Of a stretch of 64,000 nucleotides of DNA, positions 1-9,859 are shown one piece after another (position 1 is the first letter of the stretch; every line of letters begins with the position of its first letter). The DNA is from Clostridia bacterium (GTDB lineage: Bacteria; Bacillota; Clostridia; CAKSNL01; HGM11501), in assembly GCA_045123995.1 (NCBI GenBank), contig JBGVKY010000026.1, positions 73,600-137,599 on the forward strand, given 5' to 3'. A program made the translations under genes and the position numbers. The notes beneath the pieces are model-generated. The model was not told the origin of the DNA and did not search any database. It saw only the letters and a list, made by a program, of their open reading frames with translations.

Positions 1-819
1 TATGCAAACATCACTCAGATTATCTTAAATGGTGCAGAGTGGTTCGCAAGCATGGGTACAGAAAAGAGCAAAGGTACAAAAGTATTCGCGCTGGGTGGAA
101 AAATCAACAACACAGGTCTTGTGGAAATCCCCATGGGTACAACACTCCGTGAAGTTATTTATGACATCGGTGGCGGAATTCCGGGAGGCAAGAAGTTTAA
201 GGCAGCTCAGACAGGCGGACCTTCCGGCGGATGTATTCCTGCAGAACATCTTGATGTTCCCATTGACTATGATAACCTTATTGCTATCGGCTCAATGATG
301 GGTTCCGGCGGTCTTATCGTAATGGATGAAGATACCTGTATGGTTGATATCGCTAAATTCTTCCTGGAATTTACCGTTGATGAATCCTGCGGTAAGTGTG
401 CACCCTGCAGAATCGGTACAAAGAGAATGCTCGAAATCTTAGAAAAGATTACAGAGGGTAAGGGTACACTCGAAGATATCGATACTTTGGAAGAACTTGC
501 TGAAACAATTAAGACCAGTGCTTTCTGCGGACTCGGACAGACAGCTCCCAACCCCGTACTCAGCACATTAAGATATTTCAGAGACGAATATATTGCACAC
601 GTTGTGGACAAGACCTGTCCTGCCGGCGTATGTAAGAAGCTTCTTCGTTATGAAATCGACAAAGAAAAGTGTAAAGGCTGCTCTGCTTGTGCAAGAAAGT
701 GCCCTGTTGGCGCAATCACAGGTGAAATCAAGAGCCCCTATACAATTGATCCCAATAAGTGTATTAAGTGCGGCGTATGTGTTGATACCTGTAAGTTCAA
801 TGCAGTAGTGAAGAAATAA
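1..819 (+). CDS. NADH-binding NuoF-like hydrogenase subunit (HndC/HydB-type), C-terminal part with two ferredoxin-like 4Fe-4S domains. The 5' end lies outside the window
   Basis: Frame 1 is open from nt 1 ([22 protein letters not shown]...). The soluble-ligand-binding and 4Fe-4S motifs CGKCAPCR are followed by two CxxCxxCxxxCP ferredoxin motifs. The gene sits directly upstream of hydA. Confidence 0.8.
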
Positions 820-837
820 GAAAGGGAGGGGATTGAA

Positions 838-2589
838 ATGTCAAAAAATATGGTAAATTTAAAGATAAACGGAAAAGATATACAAGTTCCCGAAGGATAT
901 ACAATTCTTCAGGCTGCAAGAGAAGCCAAAATTCATATTCCCACACTGTGCTATCTTAAGGACTTAAACGAACTTGGCGCATGCAGAATGTGTGTTGTTG
1001 AGATTAAGGGTGCAAGAGCGCTTCAGGCAGCTTGCGTATACCCTGTTGCAGAGGGAATTGAAGTTTTCACCAATTCTCCTAAGGTAAGAAGTGCAAGAAA
1101 GGCTACACTTGAGCTTATTTTATCAAACCACAATAAAAAGTGTCTTTCTTGCGTAAGAAACGGAAACTGCGAACTTCAGAAGCTTTCTGAAGAACTTGGT
1201 ATTGACAAGGTTCGTTTCGGAACAGAAGAAGAAAATACAAAATATGAATTAGATAATAGCTCACCTTCTTATGTAAGAGACAACAATAAGTGCGTACTTT
1301 GCAGAAGATGTATTGCAGCTTGCGATAATCAGCAGATCAGTGTAATTCAGGCAAAGGAAAGAGGCTTTGCTACTAATATAGGCGGAGCATTTGACCTTCC
1401 TGTTGCAGAAACTCCCTGTATTTACTGCGGTCAGTGTATCGTTGCTTGCCCCACAGGTGCTCTTTCTGAAAAGGACGACACACAGAAGGTTTGGGATGCC
1501 ATTGCAGATCCTGATAAGCACGTTGTATTCCAGACAGCTCCCGCTGTAAGAGCAGCAATCGGCGAAGAATTCGGTATTAAAGCAGGAACTGCAACTACTG
1601 GTAAGATGGTCGCTGCTATAAGAGCTTTAGGTGCCGATAAGGTATTTGATACAGATACAGGTGCCGACCTTACAATCATGGAAGAGGGAACAGAATTTAT
1701 CAACAGATTTACAAAGGGCGAAAATCTTCCATTGATCACATCCTGCAGCCCCGGTTGGGTTAAGTATTGTGAAACATACTATCCCGAATTTATTAAGAAT
1801 CTTTCATCTGCAAAATCTCCCATGGAAATGTTCGGTGCAATTCTTAAGACTTATTATTGCGAGAAGAACAATATAGACCCTGAAAAGATTTTCGTAGTTG
1901 CTGTTATGCCCTGTACATCCAAGAAGTTTGAGGCTTCACGCCCTGAAATGAGCGATGCTGGACACGGTCAGGATATTGACGTATCCATCACAACAAGAGA
2001 ACTTGCAAGAATGATTAAGTCTGCAGGTATCGACTATGTAAATCTTGAAGATGAGCATTTCGACCAGCCCTTCGGTGATGCAACAGGCGCAGGCGTTATC
2101 TTCGGTGCAACAGGCGGTGTTATGGAAGCTGCTCTTCGTACAGTAAGCGAAGTTCTTACAGGCAAGAGTCTGGAGAACATTGACTTTAAGGCTGTAAGAG
2201 GAACGAAGGGTGTTAAGACTGCTAAGCTTACAATCGCAGGCAAGGAAGTAAGCATTGCGGTTGCTCATGGTGTTGCAAACATCAATAAGGTTTTGGAAGA
2301 CGTTAAGTCAGGAAAAGCTCATTACGATTTCATCGAAATGATGGCTTGCCCCGGCGGTTGCGTATGCGGTGGTGGACAGCCCATTCACAGCGCAGAATAT
2401 CTTATGGACCATGACCTTAAGGCACTTCGTGCAAAGGCTCTCTACTCTGAAGATACACATTCTGAGCTCAGAAAATCTCACGAAAATCCCTCAATCAAGT
2501 TGCTTTATAAGGAGTTCCTTGGTGAACCTTGCGGACATAAGGCTCACGAACTTCTCCATACAAAGTATCAGGAAAGAGCAAAATATTGA
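838..2589 (+). CDS. hydA: [FeFe]-hydrogenase catalytic subunit (HydA/HndD type) with an N-terminal 2Fe-2S ferredoxin domain, 4Fe-4S domains and an H-cluster domain
   Basis: RBS GGGAGGGG lies before the ATG. The N-terminus is 2Fe-2S plant-type. CxxCxxCxxxCP motifs are present. The H-cluster signature is visible in TSCSPGW, MPCTSKK and MACPGGCVCGGGQP. Confidence 0.9.
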   Translation: MSKNMVNLKINGKDIQVPEGYTILQAAREAKIHIPTLCYLKDLNELGACRMCVVEIKGARALQAACVYPVAEGIEVFTNSPKVRSARKATLELILSNHNKKCLSCVRNGNCELQKLSEELGIDKVRFGTEEENTKYELDNSSPSYVRDNNKCVLCRRCIAACDNQQISVIQAKERGFATNIGGAFDLPVAETPCIYCGQCIVACPTGALSEKDDTQKVWDAIADPDKHVVFQTAPAVRAAIGEEFGIKAGTATTGKMVAAIRALGADKVFDTDTGADLTIMEEGTEFINRFTKGENLPLITSCSPGWVKYCETYYPEFIKNLSSAKSPMEMFGAILKTYYCEKNNIDPEKIFVVAVMPCTSKKFEASRPEMSDAGHGQDIDVSITTRELARMIKSAGIDYVNLEDEHFDQPFGDATGAGVIFGATGGVMEAALRTVSEVLTGKSLENIDFKAVRGTKGVKTAKLTIAGKEVSIAVAHGVANINKVLEDVKSGKAHYDFIEMMACPGGCVCGGGQPIHSAEYLMDHDLKALRAKALYSEDTHSELRKSHENPSIKLLYKEFLGEPCGHKAHELLHTKYQERAKY

Positions 2590-2595
2590 TAAAGA

Positions 2596-2624
2596 AAATC
2601 TCCGCTTCGGCGGAGATTTTTTTG
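2596..2624 (+). terminator. Rho-independent terminator of the hydrogenase operon
   Basis: Hairpin ATCTCCGC-TTCG-GCGGAGAT followed by a T7 run. Confidence 0.8.
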
Positions 2625-2633
2625 TTAAGGAGG

Positions 2634-2880
2634 ATTTTCGTGAAAATTTTCTTTAAGCAATGCATGGGGATAATGAGAGTGCGAGCCGAAAAAATGCTGT
2701 TCGCATTTTTCAAAGTATCGCCCTTACCTTTGAACGGGAGGGGCAATTTTCGTAAAAATTTTCTTTAAGCAATGCATGGGGATAATGAGAGTGCGAGCCA
2801 AAAAAATGCTGTTCGCATTTTTCAAAGTATCGTCCTTACCCTTGAACGGGACGGGCGATTTTCGTAAAAATTTTCTTTGT
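2634..2880. repeat. Tandem direct repeat, 112-bp unit, about 2.2 copies (2634-2745, 2746-2857, partial third copy 2858-2878)
   Basis: Copies 1 and 2 are near-identical (about 5 mismatches). Each unit contains TTGAAC-N17-TAAAAT-like and GCGAGC...GTTCGC plus T-run elements. Confidence 0.9.
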
Positions 2881-2893
2881 TGAAAATTTTTAC

Positions 2894-2933
2894 TTGACAA
2901 ACTGTACTAACTGTATTACAATAAATAATACAG
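2894..2933 (+). promoter_or_regulatory. Sigma-A promoter with consensus -35 TTGACA (2894-2899), 17-bp spacer and -10 TACAAT (2917-2922). It is overlapped by an operator-like inverted repeat CTGTATTA-N7-TAATACAG (2911-2933) and direct half-site repeats ACTGTAcTA/ACTGTAtTA (2901-2918)
   Basis: Read directly from the sequence. The element sits immediately upstream of the GntR-family gene, as expected for an autoregulated YtrA-type operon. Confidence 0.7.
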
Positions 2934-2947
2934 ATGGAGGTGATAAA

Positions 2948-3322
2948 GTGATAAAGTTGGATTACAGAGACAGTCGGGCATTATATGAGCAGGTTAAAGA
3001 AGAAATGAAAAAGCTTATAATCAAAGGGGTGGTAAAAACAGATGAAAAAATCCCGTCAGTAAGAGAATTGGCATGCACTCTGTCCATAAATCCCAACACC
3101 ATTCAGCGGGCATACAGAGAGCTTGAACAGGAGGGATACATCTATTCACTTCGAGCTAAAGGGTTTTTCGTATCGCCCGTAAGCGAAGAAAATACTAAAG
3201 ATAAAGTAAATAAGCTTGAAACAGAGCTTAAAAAAATAGCAAAAGAGCTTTTGTACTTAAACATTGACAAAAAAGAAATACAAGGTATTTTAGATGAATT
3301 ATATAGCGAAAAGGAGGAATGA
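2948..3322 (+). CDS. GntR-family transcriptional regulator, YtrA subfamily (short C-terminal domain)
   Basis: GTG start at 2948 lies 7 nt after RBS GGAGG (2936-2940). The N-terminus VIKLDYRDSRALYEQVKEEM is the classic GntR wHTH start. The protein is about 124 aa. The ORF-track start at 2894 is a TTG inside the promoter -35. Confidence 0.8.
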   Translation: MIKLDYRDSRALYEQVKEEMKKLIIKGVVKTDEKIPSVRELACTLSINPNTIQRAYRELEQEGYIYSLRAKGFFVSPVSEENTKDKVNKLETELKKIAKELLYLNIDKKEIQGILDELYSEKEE

Positions 3323-4224
3323 AAAGAATGATTAAAGCAAGCGGAATAATAAAAAAATTCGGTGATTTTACTGCCCTTTCGGGACTTGATCTTAACGCTA
3401 AAAAAGGCTCAGTTTACGGCCTTGTGGGTCCTAACGGTGCAGGAAAAACCACTTTCATAAAATGTCTTTTGGGCATTTATAAAGAAGACGAAGGAAATAT
3501 AGAAGTAGAAGGCTCGCCCGTGGCAGAAAACGATATAAAACAGAAAATAGTGTACATAGGAGATGATTTATATTTCTTTCACGGCTACTCCATAAAGGAT
3601 TTAGCTAAATATTATTCGGGAATTTATAAAAATTTTAGTTGGGAAGAATACGAAAGATTAAAGTCGGTATTTGGTATTGACGAGAAAAGAAAAATAAAAC
3701 GCTTATCTAAAGGTATGCAAAAACAGGTTATGTTCTGGATTGGAATTGCCTGCAGGGGAGAGCTGCTTGTTTTAGACGAGCCCGTTGACGGACTTGACCC
3801 TGTTATGAGAAAAGCCATGTGGGGCATTGTTTTATCTAAAGTAGCAGAAGATAATTTAACGGTATTGGTATCCAGCCACAATCTCCGTGAGCTTGAAGAT
3901 GTGTGCGACCATGTGGGAATCATGCATGAAGGAAAGGTTGTTATAGAAAAGTCATTAGATGATGTAAAGGGAAATATACATAAAATTCAGGTGGCCTTTG
4001 AAAACGAATTTCCCAAAGAAGTTAAACAAGAACTTAATATACTTAATGAAAATAAATTAGGCAGCGTAAATCTTTTGATTGTAAAGGATACGGAAAGCCG
4101 GATAAGAGAAGTTATGGGAAAATACAATCCTTTAATAATGGATATTTTGCCCCTTACCCTTGAAGAAGTATTTATCTATGAGTTAGGAGGAATGGGATAT
4201 GTTGTCAAAAATGTCTTATCTTAA
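3319..4224 (+). CDS. ABC transporter ATP-binding protein
   Basis: Walker A GPNGAGKTT, the LSKGMQKQ signature and Walker B LVLDEPVDGLD are present. The start overlaps the GntR stop (ATGA). Confidence 0.85.
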   Translation: MKRMIKASGIIKKFGDFTALSGLDLNAKKGSVYGLVGPNGAGKTTFIKCLLGIYKEDEGNIEVEGSPVAENDIKQKIVYIGDDLYFFHGYSIKDLAKYYSGIYKNFSWEEYERLKSVFGIDEKRKIKRLSKGMQKQVMFWIGIACRGELLVLDEPVDGLDPVMRKAMWGIVLSKVAEDNLTVLVSSHNLRELEDVCDHVGIMHEGKVVIEKSLDDVKGNIHKIQVAFENEFPKEVKQELNILNENKLGSVNLLIVKDTESRIREVMGKYNPLIMDILPLTLEEVFIYELGGMGYVVKNVLS

Positions 4225-6238
4225 TAAAAGCATTATAAAATCCGACCTTAAGCGTTTTTGGTATCTTGCGGTATTAAATACCCTCGTAACTTTCTTTTCA
4301 GGCACGTTTTTGGTTATGGACAGATTTTTATACGGAAGGCAAAATCCCCAAAGATTAACAAATCTTCCCGGTGATTTTTACTTCGCCATGATTTTTGGTA
4401 TGATCTTTGCCCTCCTAACCACCGTGGCAGTATTTTCCTACTTAAATAAATCAAATCAGGCAGCATTCTGCCACGCTTTTCCTATAAAGAGAAAATGTCA
4501 CTATCTTTCGCATCTTACATCTGTTGTCATACTGATATCGGCATCGGGGATATTAAACTCTTTGGCATTATTCTTTTATACGTTAAATCATAATGTGGCA
4601 AAAAGCTTTACTCCTGACATAGCAATCAAGTTTTTTGTTGTTTACATGACCTATTCTCTTTTAGTAATGTCACTTACCGCATTTACCCAGATGCTTACGG
4701 GACTTTCTAGTGCCTGCGTAGTATTAACAGCATGCTTTGTGGCAATACCTTTTGCCTTTGAAACTTTCATAAAAAGCTTTTTACAAACCCATGTATACGG
4801 CTATTTCGGAGAAAGCGAATATCTTACGGGAAAAATATTTTATCTTTCCTTTGAGAAGATTTTATCGGTAAGAATTTTAATATATTTAGCCCTGATTTTA
4901 GTATTTCTCCTTTTAGGCTATATACTTTATAAATTCAGAAAAATTGAATGCAACGGAGAAGTGGTAGCTTACATAAAAATGAGACCTGTATTTATATATA
5001 CCGTTGCTCTATTTACCGGCATGGCAAGCTATGCATATTTCGGCGGCTTTTATGGGGCGAACATCTTTTTTATGCTGCCTTTTGGTATACTCGGTATAAT
5101 TATTGCTTATATGCTCTCGAGAAAGAGCTTTAATTTAATAGGAGTACATAAACCTCTCATTATCTATACACTTTTTGTAATAGCGGTATTTTTGGTGGTT
5201 AAGCTTGATTTATCGGGATTTGAACGAAGAATGCCTGATATAGAAAACATTTCATCTGTTGAATTTCCGTCTATGAGTCACTATGATAAAGCAGGTTTTT
5301 ATCCTGAGGAAAAACGAACGGATTATGCTATTGAATACTTTTTATGTGACGATGTTTTTGACGGAAAATTCACCGAGTATGAAGATATAGAAAACATCTT
5401 AAAGCTTCATTCCTATAAAATAGAAATCAGAGATAAAAATCAGGGTCCTTCCTTAAGAATAAAATATAATCTTAAAAACGGAAAAACTATGGAAAGACGC
5501 TATAATATAGATGTATATCAAGACAAAGAATATCTTGAAGATATATATAACAGTCAAAAAATGAGAGGTATTCTTTTCGAACTGGCAAACGGAACGAAAA
5601 AAGAACTTGTGGGTCTAGAAGTTTTTGATGACAGATTAAACTATGCTTTTGCATATTATCAGGGCGCAGGAAACTTAGAAGCGGAAAAAATAAAAGATGC
5701 TCTGATAAAGGATTTACTTGAAACTCCTTATGATGAATTGCCCGAAATATACCATCACGAGGGACTTTTCCCCACTAGCATAACCATGTCATTAAAGGTT
5801 GACGGTCACTATCAGAATGAAGAATTTGAAGAAACTACGGCTACAAAACGTTTAAGCTATACAATTTATCCTACTTATAAAAACACCTGGAAAGTTCTTG
5901 AAGAATTGAATCTTACATCAAAGCTTCCGACATCTGACGATGTGCTTGAAATCGGCGTTAACATAAATGATTTCAATACCTCCTGGGATAACAAAGTAGT
6001 AACCTATGAGGAAAGCGCTTATATTGAAGACTATAAGTATATGTATAAGATAACAGATAAAGAGACAATAAAAGAAATATACGAGTGGGCTTTATCCGAC
6101 AAGGTTATATATCCCGAATTTGCCGAGGGGCACAAGAATGTGGATTTATATATAGTATTCAAGAACGGATACTTTTTAAATCATTCTTTCATATTTGACG
6201 AAACCATCTGGCCCGAACCCTTAAAAAATCTTAATTAG
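4199..6238 (+). CDS. Integral membrane protein (ABC-2-type permease-like N-terminal about 330 aa with multiple TM helices, plus about 340-aa C-terminal soluble domain)
   Basis: Hydrophobic segments run through residue about 330, followed by a charged, aromatic-rich domain. The start overlaps the ATPase gene, so translation is coupled. Confidence 0.6.
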   Translation: MLSKMSYLNKSIIKSDLKRFWYLAVLNTLVTFFSGTFLVMDRFLYGRQNPQRLTNLPGDFYFAMIFGMIFALLTTVAVFSYLNKSNQAAFCHAFPIKRKCHYLSHLTSVVILISASGILNSLALFFYTLNHNVAKSFTPDIAIKFFVVYMTYSLLVMSLTAFTQMLTGLSSACVVLTACFVAIPFAFETFIKSFLQTHVYGYFGESEYLTGKIFYLSFEKILSVRILIYLALILVFLLLGYILYKFRKIECNGEVVAYIKMRPVFIYTVALFTGMASYAYFGGFYGANIFFMLPFGILGIIIAYMLSRKSFNLIGVHKPLIIYTLFVIAVFLVVKLDLSGFERRMPDIENISSVEFPSMSHYDKAGFYPEEKRTDYAIEYFLCDDVFDGKFTEYEDIENILKLHSYKIEIRDKNQGPSLRIKYNLKNGKTMERRYNIDVYQDKEYLEDIYNSQKMRGILFELANGTKKELVGLEVFDDRLNYAFAYYQGAGNLEAEKIKDALIKDLLETPYDELPEIYHHEGLFPTSITMSLKVDGHYQNEEFEETTATKRLSYTIYPTYKNTWKVLEELNLTSKLPTSDDVLEIGVNINDFNTSWDNKVVTYEESAYIEDYKYMYKITDKETIKEIYEWALSDKVIYPEFAEGHKNVDLYIVFKNGYFLNHSFIFDETIWPEPLKNLN

Positions 6239-6300
6239 GCATAAAAATCTTACCTTCTGCATATATAGTTAAAGACTTAACAAATGTGGGAGGTAAGAAA

Positions 6301-6915
6301 ATGGCAAATGAGAACAACATCGTAAAACTTGAAGGAACCATGACAGAAGAACCGGAATTAAGCCATAGAGTTTACGGCGAGGGATTTTATAAGACTGTCT
6401 TATCAGTTCCTAGATTATCAGAGTCTCTGGATTTGATTCCTGTAACAGTATCAGAAAGGCTATTGGCAGGGAATTTTGCCGAGGTCGGCGGTAAATATTA
6501 TATAGAGGGAGAGTTTCGGTCTTATAATAATTATTCTGACGAAGGAAGCAAGCTTAAGCTTACGGTTTTTGCAAAAACGTTCTCAGAGGCTTTTCCAGAA
6601 GATAATAATGAACCTAACGACATATTTTTAGATGGTTATTTGTGCAAGGAACCTACATACAGACAAACACCTTTCGGAAGAGAAATTGCCGATATGCTGC
6701 TGGCGGTAAACAGAGCCTATGGTAAATCAGATTATATTCCGCTTATCGCATGGAGCAGAAATGCCAGATTTTGTTCTACATTGCCTGTGGGAACTCATCT
6801 TAGGGTTTACGGAAGAATTCAGTCAAGACAGTACCAAAAGAAACTGGAGGAAGAAGTTTTAACAAAAACCGCATACGAAGTATCCGTATCGAAACTCGAA
6901 ATAGCAGAAGATTAA
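6301..6915 (+). CDS. SSB-like protein with two tandem OB-fold-like halves (putative single-stranded nucleic-acid-binding protein). It has no acidic C-terminal tail
   Basis: ATG at 6301 is preceded by RBS GGGAGG (6288-6293). Two segments resemble SSB OB-fold starts (NIVKLEGTMTEEPEL... and NDIFLDGYLCKEPTYRQTPFGREIADMLLAVNR). Confidence 0.4.
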   Translation: MANENNIVKLEGTMTEEPELSHRVYGEGFYKTVLSVPRLSESLDLIPVTVSERLLAGNFAEVGGKYYIEGEFRSYNNYSDEGSKLKLTVFAKTFSEAFPEDNNEPNDIFLDGYLCKEPTYRQTPFGREIADMLLAVNRAYGKSDYIPLIAWSRNARFCSTLPVGTHLRVYGRIQSRQYQKKLEEEVLTKTAYEVSVSKLEIAED

Positions 6916-7221: not shown

Positions 7222-8805
7222 ATGTTTTTATCTAAAATTTTTACTTTTACTCCGCCTTCAGAAGAAGACGATTTTGTCATACTAGGGACAGGTTCTTCCA
7301 TAAAGGAAAAAGAAGACATAAAAGTTTCTTCTTGCCTTAAAGAAAATATGGACTATCTTGATAGTGTTTTCAAAAAAGATAAATCCTATGATGTAAAATC
7401 AAGAGAGTTTTTTATAAAAATGGGGAGATTCAAGGTCAATGCCGCCATATATTTCATTGACGGACTGGTTTCTAATACCAGCGTAAATGATGCTATTTTA
7501 ACACCCTTAATGATTGAATCGGAAAAAATAAAAGAAAAGGATTACGATAGCGTTTTTAACTCACTGGTGCCCCAGAATCAGGTTAAAAAATCGGAAGATA
7601 TGAAAGATATAATAGAAGAAATATGCTATGGAACATGCGCACTTTTCATTGACGGTTATAGTGAGGCGATATTGCCTCAGGTAATAGGCTGGGAAAAAAG
7701 AGGTGTAGACGAACCTAAAACTGAACCTGCCATTTTTGGTCCCAACCAGGCATTTAATGAAACTTTGAAGGTAAATACCTCCATGATGAGAAAAATGATC
7801 CGCTCTCCCGAGCTGGTTATTGAAAATATAACCGTAGGGGAGGTTGCTAAATGTAACTGTGCCGTTTTATATATGGAGAATATAACAAATCAGTCATTAG
7901 TAAAAGAAGTGAAAAAACGGATAGAAGGGCTTAAAGTCGACCACATTATAAGCTCGGGAGAGCTTATGCAGTTTATAGAAAACAACAGTTTCATAACGCT
8001 ACCGCAGATTATATCCACAGAAAGGCCTGACAGATGTGTGAAAAGCATTATGTCCGGAAGGGTAGTGGTATTGGTGGATAATTCTCCTCTGGCACTTATC
8101 ATGCCGGCAACTGTTTTTGAACTTACAGAATCGGCAGAAGACGTATATTTAAGGCCTGCATATGCACTTTTGGTAAAAAGCATAAGATATCTTGGGATTT
8201 TACTTTCTATCTACCTTCCTGGTATTTATATAGCTGCAATAACGTATCATACCACGATTTTTCCCACGGGAATGTTAACCACTATAATGAGGGCTGGAAG
8301 AAAAGTCCCCTTCGATTCGGTGACAGAGCTTGTAGTAATGGTTATAGCGTTTGAAATTGTTAGGGAAGCAAGTTCCAGAGTTCCGGGATTTTTGGGGTCA
8401 AGCCTCGGCATAATAGGGCCCTTGGTTTTAGGACAGGCTAGTATAAGTGCCAATATAGTAAGTCCGGTCATGCTTATTGTTTTTTCCATAGCAACCATAG
8501 GTTCTTTTGTTACCCCTAATTTTTCAATGGCGTTTTCGGGCAGAGTATTAAATATAATCTATATAATTCTTGGCAGCACGGGAGGATTTTTAGGGATAGC
8601 CGTTGGAATTTTCTGCCAAATGATGCTGTGGCATGAAACTAAATCTTTTGGCGTAAATATGATTTTACCCTTTTCCGAGAAGCAAAGCTTAATTCCTGAG
8701 CCTCTAAAGGTAACGCCTATATGGAAGCATGAAACAAGGCCGGGTTACCTCAAAACAAAAAGAATTAAGGAACAGGCTCATATAAGCAGACCTTGGAAGA
8801 AATGA
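7222..8805 (+). CDS. Spore germinant receptor, GerA-family A subunit
   Basis: GerA-family core with C-terminal TM helices (FIDGLVSNTSVNDAILTPLM...). RBS AAGGGAG is present. Confidence 0.85.
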   Translation: MFLSKIFTFTPPSEEDDFVILGTGSSIKEKEDIKVSSCLKENMDYLDSVFKKDKSYDVKSREFFIKMGRFKVNAAIYFIDGLVSNTSVNDAILTPLMIESEKIKEKDYDSVFNSLVPQNQVKKSEDMKDIIEEICYGTCALFIDGYSEAILPQVIGWEKRGVDEPKTEPAIFGPNQAFNETLKVNTSMMRKMIRSPELVIENITVGEVAKCNCAVLYMENITNQSLVKEVKKRIEGLKVDHIISSGELMQFIENNSFITLPQIISTERPDRCVKSIMSGRVVVLVDNSPLALIMPATVFELTESAEDVYLRPAYALLVKSIRYLGILLSIYLPGIYIAAITYHTTIFPTGMLTTIMRAGRKVPFDSVTELVVMVIAFEIVREASSRVPGFLGSSLGIIGPLVLGQASISANIVSPVMLIVFSIATIGSFVTPNFSMAFSGRVLNIIYIILGSTGGFLGIAVGIFCQMMLWHETKSFGVNMILPFSEKQSLIPEPLKVTPIWKHETRPGYLKTKRIKEQAHISRPWKK

Positions 8806-8809
8806 GGGG

Positions 8810-9859
8810 TTGATTTTGAAAATAAAAAATAAAACCTTGCTATTTGCAACGGTTAACTTTGTAACTGTAAAAATATTTACTTTTACAAGTCAAAGTATTA
8901 TTGATGCAGGCCAAAACAGTGCTTGGATTATGGTTATATTGAATACTTTTATAAACGCTTTTTTGTTTTATATTATATATCGGCTTTTTTTGAGAAGCGG
9001 AAAGAAAGATATTTTTTCCATCATGACGCCTTTTTTAAGGAAGACTTTTTCTGTTTTGGTATTTTCATACTTTATTTTTACCGCGGGAATTACCCTAAGG
9101 CTTTTAATTCAGGGAGTAATAAGGAACTTTATGCCCGAATCTCCGTCGCTATTTATTTCTTCTTTTTTTATAATTGCAATAATTTATGGAGCCACAAAGG
9201 GGATAAATTCAAATCTTTCCCTTTCGTTAGTTATAGCACCATTACTGGCCTTTACCATAATTGTTTCTGTGGTAATGCTTCCTTATTATGATTTTACCAA
9301 TTTATTTCCGATTTTAGGGGAGAATAATTTTTATATAAAATCTATTTATGCATTTAACTATTTTTCTGATTTTTTGATATTTATACTTTTGATGCCTTAT
9401 ATTGAAAATAAAGGAAACTTCCTTAAAACTGGGCTTTGGGCTATATTTGTTTCCGGTGCGGTGTGCCTTTTGGTAGTCCTTTGCCAGATTTTATCAATCC
9501 CTTTGGAGAAAGAGGTTTTTTCGCCTTTTTACTATATGGTTACGTTTTTATCAGGAAGCAGAAGCCCTATAAATTTTGTGAAAATATTCAAGCTTTTATT
9601 TCTTTTTAATTTTCTTTTGTATTTTTCCACAGCAACAGCTCTTGCAACGTATACATTGAAAAGAGGGTTTTCAATAAAATATGAAAAAAAGCTTGTGGGA
9701 GTATGCGCACTTTTGATTTTACTGACAGAAGAGGTTTTGCAGGGCTCTTGTGTTTTTCTGGATGTGTATACTGTATTTTATAAGTATTCCTTTATTATCT
9801 TTCCTTTGATTCCGTTGCTTTCTTATGCCTTTACTAAAAAGAAGGGGATTGAAAAATGA
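8810..9859 (+). CDS. Spore germinant receptor B subunit (APC-superfamily-like integral membrane protein)
   Basis: About 10 TM helices. It is coupled to the A subunit. TTG start at 8810 or 8816 after GAGGGG. Confidence 0.8.
   Translation: MILKIKNKTLLFATVNFVTVKIFTFTSQSIIDAGQNSAWIMVILNTFINAFLFYIIYRLFLRSGKKDIFSIMTPFLRKTFSVLVFSYFIFTAGITLRLLIQGVIRNFMPESPSLFISSFFIIAIIYGATKGINSNLSLSLVIAPLLAFTIIVSVVMLPYYDFTNLFPILGENNFYIKSIYAFNYFSDFLIFILLMPYIENKGNFLKTGLWAIFVSGAVCLLVVLCQILSIPLEKEVFSPFYYMVTFLSGSRSPINFVKIFKLLFLFNFLLYFSTATALATYTLKRGFSIKYEKKLVGVCALLILLTEEVLQGSCVFLDVYTVFYKYSFIIFPLIPLLSYAFTKKKGIEK

What the first reader, a model, noticed from the sequence alone, without database searches (positions are those of the whole stretch)
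2894..2947. Consensus promoter with an overlapping triple CTGTA.TA operator for a YtrA-type GntR regulator
TTGACA, a 17-bp spacer and TACAAT form a near-perfect sigma-A promoter. Two direct 9-bp half-sites and an 8-bp inverted repeat (CTGTATTA-N7-TAATACAG) cover the spacer, the -10 and the +1 region. This is the classic geometry for autorepression by the downstream GntR (YtrA subfamily), so it is a ready-made regulator-operator pair for an operon of unknown inducer.
Basis: partly seen in the sequence, partly recalled or inferred. Interest (0 to 1): 0.5.

Follow-up and report, generated by a model that had tools for sequence, protein, structure and literature searches.

The report
Self-repressed promoter of a YtrA–ABC transporter operon
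This is a strong housekeeping-type promoter with three built-in binding boxes for the small GntR/YtrA repressor encoded just downstream; the arrangement recurs in front of the same three-gene transporter operon across many Firmicutes, so it is real but an ordinary example of a known kind of switch.

Summary
TTGACA (2894-2899), a 17-bp spacer and TACAAT (2917-2922) form the promoter. Three half-sites follow: ACTGTACTA (2901-2909), ACTGTATTA (2910-2918) and TAATACAGA (2926-2934).

Within this window alone the signal is only moderately above chance. Comparative evidence settles it:
- In seven orthologous upstream regions (65-87% regulator identity), conservation begins exactly at the -35 and the CTGT/ACAG cores are invariant.
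- Among 86 loci from Clostridia and Bacilli, 63 carry the same core palindrome within 110 bp of the regulator's start. The G-to-C distance is 18 bp (CTGTA-N13-TACAG), the geometry reported for the B. subtilis YtrA operator.
- 60 of those 63 have extra half-sites in 9-bp register.
- All 76 core sites found in 608 kb lie upstream of the regulator gene.

The regulator is a true YtrA-subfamily protein: a GntR winged helix plus two C-terminal helices. It heads a conserved operon of regulator, ABC ATPase and a DUF6449 membrane protein.

Best explanation: autorepression by promoter occlusion. A dimer sits on boxes 2 and 3, and box 1 is an auxiliary site. The inducer is unknown. Binding was not tested. 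This is a new member of a known kind, of low to moderate interest.

The parts
2894..2899 (+). -35 hexamer TTGACA
   Evidence: 11 of 12 match. TTGAC is invariant in 7 orthologous upstream regions, and conservation starts exactly here.
2917..2922 (+). -10 hexamer TACAAT, overlapping the 3' end of box 2. The transcription start is predicted near 2928-2930, inside box 3.
   Evidence: Orthologues have TAAAAT, TATAAT, TATTAT or TAATAT at the same position. The transcription start is inferred from spacing and was not mapped.
2901..2909 (+). Box 1, an auxiliary direct half-site ACTGTACTA lying 9 bp upstream of box 2, in the promoter spacer
   Evidence: CTGT is invariant in 7 orthologues. An outer-left box with 2 or fewer mismatches is present in 24 of 63 loci, against 0.8% at control positions.
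2910..2918 (+). Box 2, left half of the core palindrome, ACTGTATTA
   Evidence: It forms the F-R pair at 18 bp that recurs in 60 of 84 upstream regions and in none of 200 shuffles.
2926..2934 (+). Box 3, right half of the core palindrome, TAATACAGA. It covers the predicted +1.
   Evidence: I22. TACAGA is invariant in 7 orthologues.
2936..2940 (+). Shine-Dalgarno GGAGG, 7 nt before the GTG start
   Evidence: Read directly. It aligns with the GG[A/G]GG at the same position in the orthologues.
2948..3322 (+). Gene for the 124-aa YtrA-subfamily GntR regulator, the presumed repressor
   Evidence: Homologues begin with MIKLDYRD, which supports the GTG start.
3319..4224 (+). ABC transporter ATP-binding protein. 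The likely true start is ATG 3328, because homologues align from residue 4. It abuts or overlaps the regulator's stop codon.
   Evidence: It follows the regulator in essentially all 86 loci.
4199..6238 (+). 679-aa membrane protein with about 8 hydrophobic segments in residues 1-340 and a C-terminal DUF6449-like domain. It overlaps the ATPase gene by 26 bp.
   Evidence: DUF6449, 19 bits, below the cut-off; hydropathy; DUF6449 above Pfam's cut-off in 7 of 9 orthologues.

Best explanation
The region is a sigma-A-type promoter that carries the operator of the YtrA-subfamily GntR repressor encoded by the first gene it transcribes.

A repressor dimer recognises the 25-bp core palindrome ACTGTATTA-N7-TAATACAGA (boxes 2 and 3). 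The conserved G and C lie 18 bp apart, about two helical turns. Box 1, 9 bp upstream, is an auxiliary half-site that probably recruits or stabilises a second dimer.

The boxes fill the -35/-10 spacer, overlap the -10 and cover the predicted +1. An occupied operator therefore excludes RNA polymerase. This shuts off the three-gene operon (regulator, ABC ATPase, DUF6449 membrane protein), which is negative autoregulation.

Derepression most likely follows a signal sensed through the transporter itself, either a membrane-active or peptide substrate or capture of the repressor by the ATPase. This is by analogy with PmtR and MbrR.

Shown here: the sequence anatomy, the regulator's family, the synteny and the conservation of the boxes. 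Inferred: binding, stoichiometry, repression and the inducing signal.
For: **Anatomy.**

**Regulator family.**
- Pfam GntR scores 56.3 bits against a cut-off of 27.
- The AF2 model has the winged helix plus helices 80-103 and 108-123.
- The top Foldseek matches are full-length YtrA-type structures. The PDB sequence search also puts short YtrA-type regulators on top.

**Phylogenetic footprint.** In 7 orthologous upstream regions, sequence upstream of TTGACA cannot be aligned. TTGAC, the CTGT of box 1, the AACTGT of box 2 and the TACAGA of box 3 are invariant.

**Family-wide survey.**
- 63 of 86 upstream regions have the core palindrome.
- The F-R pair at 18 bp occurs 60 times, against 0 in 200 shuffles.
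- 60 of 63 have additional half-sites in 9-bp register, against 0.8% at control positions.
- All 76 core sites in 608 kb of fetched loci lie upstream of the GntR gene: 71 within 160 bp and 5 at 200-370 bp.

**Position relative to the promoter.** In 39 of the 43 loci with a good promoter-like match, the operator centre falls between -12 and +25 of the end of the -10.

**Synteny.** The order regulator, ABC ATPase, DUF6449 protein is kept in nearly all loci.

**Literature.**
- The B. subtilis YtrA operator is AGTGTA-13bp-TACACT (PMC8060467).
- YtrA motifs are long with distal GT/AC pairs, their regulons are usually a single ABC-transporter operon, and extra boxes lie 7-12 nt away (PMC4494728).
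- Secondary half-sites contribute to binding of YtrASa (PMC6746942).
- PmtR autorepression was shown by footprinting (PMC5080381).
- MbrR binds a palindrome, forms two complexes and is sequestered by its ATPase (bioRxiv 10.64898/2026.02.18.706565).
Against: - No binding, transcription-start or expression data exist for this locus.
- Within the window alone the inverted repeat is only about a 1-in-100 event, and no second site exists in 64 kb to define a regulon.
- The role of box 1 is uncertain. Its partner position for a second 18-bp palindrome (2917-2925) is not a half-site (5 mismatches), so a second dimer would have only one specific contact.
- A test for co-variation between regulator residues and half-site position 2 gave only a suggestive hit. 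It was wing residue 71 K-to-R, uncorrected p = 5e-4, which is not significant after multiple testing or allowing for phylogeny.
Confidence: 0.85

Rival explanations
1. The inverted repeat works as an RNA hairpin in the leader (attenuator, stability element or terminator) or as a DNA cruciform, not as a protein-binding operator.
For: The region folds as RNA at -8.9 kcal/mol, z = -1.94. In the 7 close orthologues all 8 arm pairs stay pairable if G-U pairs are allowed.
Against: - The left arm (2911-2918) lies in the spacer and -10, upstream of the predicted start, so it is not transcribed from this promoter.
- No U-tract follows the hairpin.
- There are no compensatory double changes.
- Across the family the two arms vary independently. 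Position 2 is C/G or G/C in 16 of 65 loci, which breaks complementarity.
- Box 1 and the 9-bp register of extra boxes have no place in a hairpin model.
- There is no Rfam match above threshold.
Confidence: 0.03
2. The boxes are bound by a different regulator encoded elsewhere (for example another YtrA/GntR paralogue or a global factor), and the adjacent GntR protein acts on other targets.
For: Binding was not tested. GntR-family half-sites with a TGTA core are shared by several subfamilies (for example the FarR direct repeats TGTATTAWTT cited in PMC4494728).
Against: - The motif co-occurs with this regulator gene in about 70 genomes of different families and classes.
- It was never found elsewhere in 608 kb.
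- The 18-bp span fits the extended YtrA dimer (62 A between recognition helices, PMC6746942) and the B. subtilis YtrA operator.
- No other GntR-like ORF is present in the window.
Confidence: 0.05
3. The repeats are a chance feature of an AT-rich promoter, conserved only because the compared genomes are close relatives.
For: The window-only statistics are modest. The total number of promoter-like hits is at chance level.
Against: - Flanking intergenic DNA is already unalignable at 65-80% protein identity, while the boxes stay invariant.
- The same half-site consensus and spacing are found in Bacillaceae, Oscillospiraceae, Lachnospiraceae and others at 42-57% regulator identity.
Confidence: 0.02

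Closest known systems
Bacillus subtilis YtrA and its operator upstream of ytrGABCDEF and ywoBCD (Salzberg 2011, as cited in PMC8060467)
   Same: It is a short YtrA-subfamily GntR repressor encoded in the ABC-transporter operon it represses. Its operator is an inverted repeat of 6-mers separated by 13 bp (AGTGTA-N13-TACACT, against ACTGTA-N13-TACAGA here), so the G-to-C span is the same 18 bp.
   Different: - Position 2 of the half-site is C here and G in B. subtilis.
- The transporter differs: here a single ATPase plus one large DUF6449 membrane protein, there YtrBCDEF.
- Here an extra direct half-site lies 9 bp upstream and the operator sits inside the promoter spacer and -10.
- No second target is known here.
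Staphylococcus aureus PmtR / pmtR-pmtABCD (PMC5080381)
   Same: It is a YtrA-type autorepressor that is the first gene of an ABC exporter operon, with a footprinted operator in the shared promoter. NCBIfam PmtR and PmtA give the best or near-best full-length partial matches.
   Different: Scores are far below the equivalog cut-offs (76.9 against 200 bits; 149.5 against 350), so this is not an orthologue. The pmt system has two ATPases and two permeases. PSM peptides are the known effectors there; here the effector is unknown.
Streptococcus salivarius MbrR-MbrAB (bioRxiv 10.64898/2026.02.18.706565)
   Same: It has the order YtrA-like repressor, ABC ATPase, membrane component. It has a palindromic promoter-proximal operator. 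Two EMSA complexes suggest more than one oligomeric state. The authors propose that sequestration by the ATPase is general for YtrA-ABC modules.
   Different: Homology to MbrR and MbrA was not tested here. The membrane partner is a different protein (DUF6449 type). Sequestration is only an analogy for this locus.
Sulfolobus acidocaldarius YtrASa (PMC6746942; PDB 6sbs)
   Same: It is an autorepressor whose core palindrome covers the transcription start. The palindrome is flanked by secondary half-sites that contribute measurably to binding. There is a structural match to the model.
   Different: It is archaeal, with a compact dimer and a 14-bp core. The locus here has the long bacterial-type spacing.
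Additional half-site boxes next to GntR-family palindromes (Suvorova, Korostelev and Gelfand 2015, PMC4494728)
   Same: They predicted weaker extra boxes 7-12 nt from the site in 6 YtrA orthologous groups. Box 1 here and the 9-bp-register boxes in relatives are the same phenomenon.
   Different: In this operon family the extra boxes are nearly universal (60 of 63) and often as strong as the core. I could not check whether this orthologous group was among their 12, because the YtrA sheet of the supplement is truncated in the held copy.

Membership tests
YtrA subfamily of GntR-family regulators | N-terminal GntR-type winged helix-turn-helix domain | tested here: met
   Pfam PF00392, residues 12-75, 56.3 bits against a cut-off of 27. 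The model shows three helices and a beta hairpin.
YtrA subfamily of GntR-family regulators | Reduced C-terminal domain of about 50 residues made of two helices (PMC4494728) | tested here: met
   The protein is 124 aa. The AF2 model has helices 80-103 and 108-123, mean pLDDT 77.5. There are full-length Foldseek matches to 4ham, 3neu, 3by6, 4r1h, 2du9/2ek5 and 6sbs.
YtrA subfamily of GntR-family regulators | Gene in an operon with ABC-transporter genes | tested here: met
   The regulator's stop abuts or overlaps the ATPase start, and the ATPase and membrane genes overlap by 26 bp. The same order is seen in nearly all 86 loci.
YtrA subfamily of GntR-family regulators | Long (about 24 bp) palindromic operator with conserved GT and AC far from the centre | tested here: met
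   There is a 25-bp palindrome at 2910-2934 with G2913 and C2931 18 bp apart. It is conserved in 63 of 86 loci. Physical binding was not tested.
YtrA subfamily of GntR-family regulators | Homodimer that binds the operator and represses transcription | not testable with these tools
   This needs EMSA or footprinting and a reporter or knockout.
PmtR equivalog (NCBIfam NF047563) | Score at or above the curated equivalog cut-off of 200 bits | tested here: not met
   76.9 bits over the full length. It is a relative, not an orthologue.
Sigma-A (sigma-70-type) promoter | -35 TTGACA and -10 TATAAT hexamers separated by 16-18 bp | tested here: met
   The -35 matches 6 of 6 and the -10 matches 5 of 6, with a 17-bp spacer. 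The -35 and the TAnnnT frame are conserved in orthologues.
Sigma-A (sigma-70-type) promoter | Transcription starts about 7 nt downstream of the -10 | not testable with these tools
   This needs 5'-RACE or dRNA-seq.
Transporter-mediated sequestration module (MbrRAB type) | Repressor physically captured by the cognate ABC ATPase in an ATP-dependent way | not testable with these tools
   Only the gene order is shared. The structure tool here takes one protein at a time, so no complex could be modelled.

The most novel reading that the evidence does not exclude
The regulator, ABC ATPase and DUF6449 membrane protein form a widespread, wholly uncharacterised envelope-stress or antimicrobial-peptide sensing module of Firmicutes. 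Its operator is an array of 3-4 half-sites in strict 9-bp register rather than a simple palindrome. This would imply an obligate higher-order assembly, such as two interlocked dimers or a tetramer, that gives switch-like autorepression. Release would occur through capture of the repressor by the transporter's ATPase rather than through a small-molecule ligand.
Probability: 0.25. Interest if true: 0.45.

Novelty: new member of a known kind. Interest (0 to 1): 0.25.

Why it matters
The work yields a well-supported regulator-operator pair, with a half-site consensus (ACTGTAYTA), a fixed 18-bp core span and a 9-bp register for auxiliary boxes. The pair belongs to a three-gene transporter module found in many Clostridia and Bacilli. 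Its membrane component (DUF6449) appears in no paper in the searchable library.

This makes three things directly testable: the stoichiometry of YtrA-type binding to multi-box operators, the role of auxiliary half-sites, and whether ATPase-mediated sequestration extends to this module.

It does not change any concept. YtrA-type autorepression of ABC operons through long palindromes is established.

Tried and rejected
- **Regulon search in the window.** The exact pattern with up to 3 mismatches, and half-site pairs at 18 bp, gave only the site itself. Weaker pairs are at or below the shuffle expectation.
- **Rfam scan of 2560-3000.** Nothing reached threshold. The weak hits are only the hydA terminator hairpin.
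- **RNA-hairpin reading.** The fold is marginal (z = -1.94) and there is no covariation. It was rejected mainly on position and on the independent variation of the arms.
- **CodY-box idea for the AT-rich palindrome upstream of the -35.** Matches in the window are exactly at chance, 18 against 18 expected.
- **Internal promoter-like site at 3264-3291** (10 of 12). It is not conserved in L081 or L083 and is probably a chance match.
- **Co-variation between regulator residues and half-site position 2.** The best hit was K71R in the wing, uncorrected p = 5e-4, not significant after correction.
- **Whether Suvorova et al. had already described this orthologous group.** The YtrA sheet of their supplement is truncated in the held copy.
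- **Source record of the window.** The look-up via the 100%-identical protein P0001 found nothing on record.
- **Literature on DUF6449.** No papers were found.

Full report
**1. What is in the sequence**

- TTGACA lies at 2894-2899.
- The 17-bp spacer AACTGTACTAACTGTAT lies at 2900-2916.
- TACAAT lies at 2917-2922.
- Two abutting direct 9-mers are ACTGTACTA (2901-2909, box 1) and ACTGTATTA (2910-2918, box 2).
- A perfect 8-bp inverted repeat is CTGTATTA (2911-2918) and TAATACAG (2926-2933), 7 bp apart. The right arm is box 3 (I22).
- GGAGG follows at 2936-2940. A GTG at 2948 opens a 124-aa ORF that ends at 3322.
- The N-terminus MIKLDYRD is shared by homologues, which fixes the start codon.
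- The consensus scan rates the promoter 11 of 12, the best site between 2400 and 6400.

**2. Is it more than chance?**

On the window alone, only moderately.
- The number of promoter-like hits in the region is at the shuffle expectation, 12 against 14.
- A perfect 8-bp inverted repeat with a 3-15 bp spacer arises in 0.9% of shuffles of the 54-bp segment. It is present in 30 of 1185 real 54-bp windows.
- The full pattern with up to 3 mismatches occurs once in the window, against 0.33 expected.

The decisive evidence is comparative.

**3. The genes downstream**

- The 124-aa protein matches Pfam GntR at 56.3 bits, against a cut-off of 27.
- Its best full-length NCBIfam match is PmtR, far below the equivalog cut-off (76.9 against 200 bits).
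- Its closest solved relatives by sequence are short YtrA-type regulators: 4ham, 3neu, 4r1h, 3by6, 6sbs and 2du9.
- An AlphaFold2 model (mean pLDDT 77.5) shows the winged helix-turn-helix followed by exactly two helices, 80-103 and 108-123.
- Foldseek returns the same YtrA-type structures over the full length. These include CGL2947 (2du9/2ek5) and YtrASa (6sbs).
- The next gene (3319 or 3328 to 4224) is an ABC ATPase.
- The third gene (4199-6238) overlaps the ATPase gene by 26 bp. It encodes a 679-aa protein with about eight hydrophobic segments in its first half and a C-terminal region with a weak DUF6449 match.
- In orthologues DUF6449 passes Pfam's cut-off in 7 of 9 proteins tested.

**4. 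Orthologous promoters**

Homologues of the regulator were traced to contigs. Seven upstream regions were aligned, from genomes whose regulators are 65-87% identical to this one.
- Sequence upstream of the -35 cannot be aligned.
- Conservation begins exactly at TTGACA and runs to the start codon.
- TTGAC, the CTGT of box 1, the AACTGT of box 2, and TTA and TACAGA of box 3 are invariant.
- The -10 drifts within a TAnnnT frame (TACAAT, TAAAAT, TATAAT, TATTAT, TAATAT).

This is the footprint expected of a promoter with an embedded operator.

**5. The wider family**

A scan of GTDB representative genomes with an alignment of close homologues returned 80 loci from Clostridia and Bacilli, with 42-66% regulator identity.
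- In nearly all of them the regulator is followed by homologues of the same ATPase and the same large membrane protein.
- I defined a half-site as ACTGTAYTA, allowing C/G at position 2, A/G at position 6 and one mismatch.
- On that definition, 60 of 84 non-redundant 110-bp upstream regions contain a forward-reverse pair whose G and C are exactly 18 bp apart. None appeared in 200 shuffles.
- With two further orthologues added, 63 of 86 regions have this core.
- Extra half-sites in strict 9-bp register accompany the core in 60 of 63. There are 24 outer-left and 26 outer-right boxes, including 7 loci with both. Other extra boxes lie inside the palindrome.
- 9-mers at control positions reach the same score in only 0.8% of cases.
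- The window and its six closest relatives belong to the 'core plus outer-left box' class.
- Across all 608 kb of fetched loci there are 76 core sites. Every one lies upstream of the regulator gene: 71 within 160 bp and 5 at 200-370 bp. Those five are in loci that had no site in the proximal 110 bp.
- Where a good promoter-like match exists (43 loci), the operator centre falls between -12 and +25 of the end of the -10 in 39 loci. The preferred offsets are 0 (this clade), +3, +14, +16/17 and +25.
- The site therefore overlaps the -10 or sits just downstream of it, close enough to interfere with RNA polymerase.

**6. How it most likely works**

- The 18-bp span equals that of the experimentally defined B. 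subtilis YtrA operator, AGTGTA-13bp-TACACT (PMC8060467, citing Salzberg et al. 2011).
- It matches the roughly two-turn separation of recognition helices in the CGL2947 dimer (PMC6746942, citing Gao et al. 2007).
- The best-supported mechanism is a repressor dimer on boxes 2 and 3 that occludes the spacer, the -10 and +1. Box 1 would serve as an auxiliary half-site for a second dimer or a higher-order complex.
- Auxiliary boxes next to YtrA palindromes have been predicted (PMC4494728). For YtrASa they were shown by mutation to contribute to affinity (PMC6746942).
- MbrR forms two complexes in EMSA (bioRxiv 10.64898/2026.02.18.706565).
- In the window, the position that would pair with box 1 at 18 bp is not a half-site (5 mismatches). 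A second dimer would therefore have only one specific contact, and the stoichiometry remains an inference.
- Induction is unknown. The closest precedents are displacement by exported peptides (PmtR, PMC5080381) and ATP-dependent capture of the repressor by the transporter's ATPase. The MbrR preprint's authors propose the latter as general for YtrA-ABC modules.

**7. Rivals**

- **RNA hairpin or cruciform.** This is unlikely.
  - The left arm lies upstream of the predicted start, and no U-tract follows.
  - The fold is marginal (-8.9 kcal/mol, z = -1.94).
  - Close orthologues show no compensatory changes.
  - In the wider family the arms differ at position 2 in 16 of 65 loci.
- **Another regulator binds the site.** This is disfavoured. 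The site is found only next to this gene, its geometry is YtrA-specific, and the window holds no other GntR-like ORF.
- **Chance or mere relatedness.** This is excluded by the unalignable flanks and by conservation across classes.

**8. Comparison with known systems and novelty**

- The regulator meets all testable defining features of the YtrA subfamily.
- It fails the PmtR equivalog cut-off, so it is a relative and not an orthologue.
- The promoter-operator design is the established YtrA pattern: a single autoregulated ABC operon with a long palindrome.
- The particular points here are:
  - the half-site sequence, with C where B. subtilis YtrA has G;
  - the placement of the operator inside the promoter in this clade;
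  - the near-universal 9-bp-register auxiliary boxes;
  - the uncharacterised DUF6449 membrane partner, for which no paper was found.
- I could not establish whether this orthologous group was already catalogued by Suvorova et al., because the held supplement is truncated.
- Verdict: a correct observation and a supported interpretation. It is a new member of a known kind, of low to moderate interest.

Noticed in passing
window 2634-2878: A 112-bp unit is tandemly duplicated (2634-2745 and 2746-2857, 95% identical), with a 22-bp partial third copy that runs up to the promoter's upstream edge. Each unit carries a small hairpin, AAAAATGC-N5-GCATTTTT. The unit occurs nowhere else in the 64-kb window. 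The 87% orthologue L081 has one full and one partial copy, and more distant orthologues have none. There is no Rfam match. Its function is unknown; it may be a local duplication of promoter-upstream DNA.
   Followed up: partly
window 2864-2893: A perfect 12-bp AT-rich inverted repeat, GTAAAAATTTTC-N6-GAAAATTTTTAC, directly abuts the -35. L082 has a different perfect 15-bp palindrome at the same place (AGTCAAGAAAAATTT/AAATTTTTCTTGACT) that includes its -35. Other orthologues simply have AT-rich DNA there. It could be an UP-like element or a site for another factor. A CodY-box search was at chance level.
   Followed up: partly
window 2941-2956: A direct repeat TGATAAAG TGATAAAG spans the end of the leader and the first codons (GTG ATA AAG). 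The same GATAAAGTGATAAAG string is kept in L083 and L001 and, with a single substitution, in L089. Its significance is unknown.
   Followed up: no
window 6286-6915: An SSB-like protein of 209 aa (NCBIfam PRK05813, 291 bits; the single Pfam SSB match covers residues 111-205) lies 48 bp after the transporter operon. No terminator-like site was detected between them. The same gene follows the operon in L081 and L083 but not in distant loci, so it may be co-transcribed.
   Followed up: partly
window 52-2623: These are HydB-like (52-819, cut at the window start) and HydA-like [FeFe]-hydrogenase (838-2589) genes. They are followed by a strong terminator hairpin at 2592-2623 (14-nt arms, 93% complementary, then a T-run). 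The same hydrogenase genes precede the operon in L081 and L082.
   Followed up: no
window 7222-9859: The 527-aa ORF at 7222-8805 corresponds to the product with a Pfam GerA hit at the same position in L081. By its sequence, the 349-aa multi-pass membrane ORF at 8810-9859 is probably its GerAB-type partner. This would point to a spore-forming Clostridia host.
   Followed up: no
window 3264-3291: There is a promoter-like match, TTGACA-16-TATTTT (10 of 12), inside the 3' end of the regulator gene. It could in principle give regulator-independent transporter expression. The hexamers are not conserved in L081 or L083, so it is probably a chance match.
   Followed up: yes
L015, L029, L042, L047, L059 (200-370 bp upstream of the regulator gene): In these loci the operator lies further upstream and the proximal 110 bp looks like coding sequence. 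This suggests a small extra gene between the promoter and the regulator, comparable to ytrG in B. subtilis.
   Followed up: no
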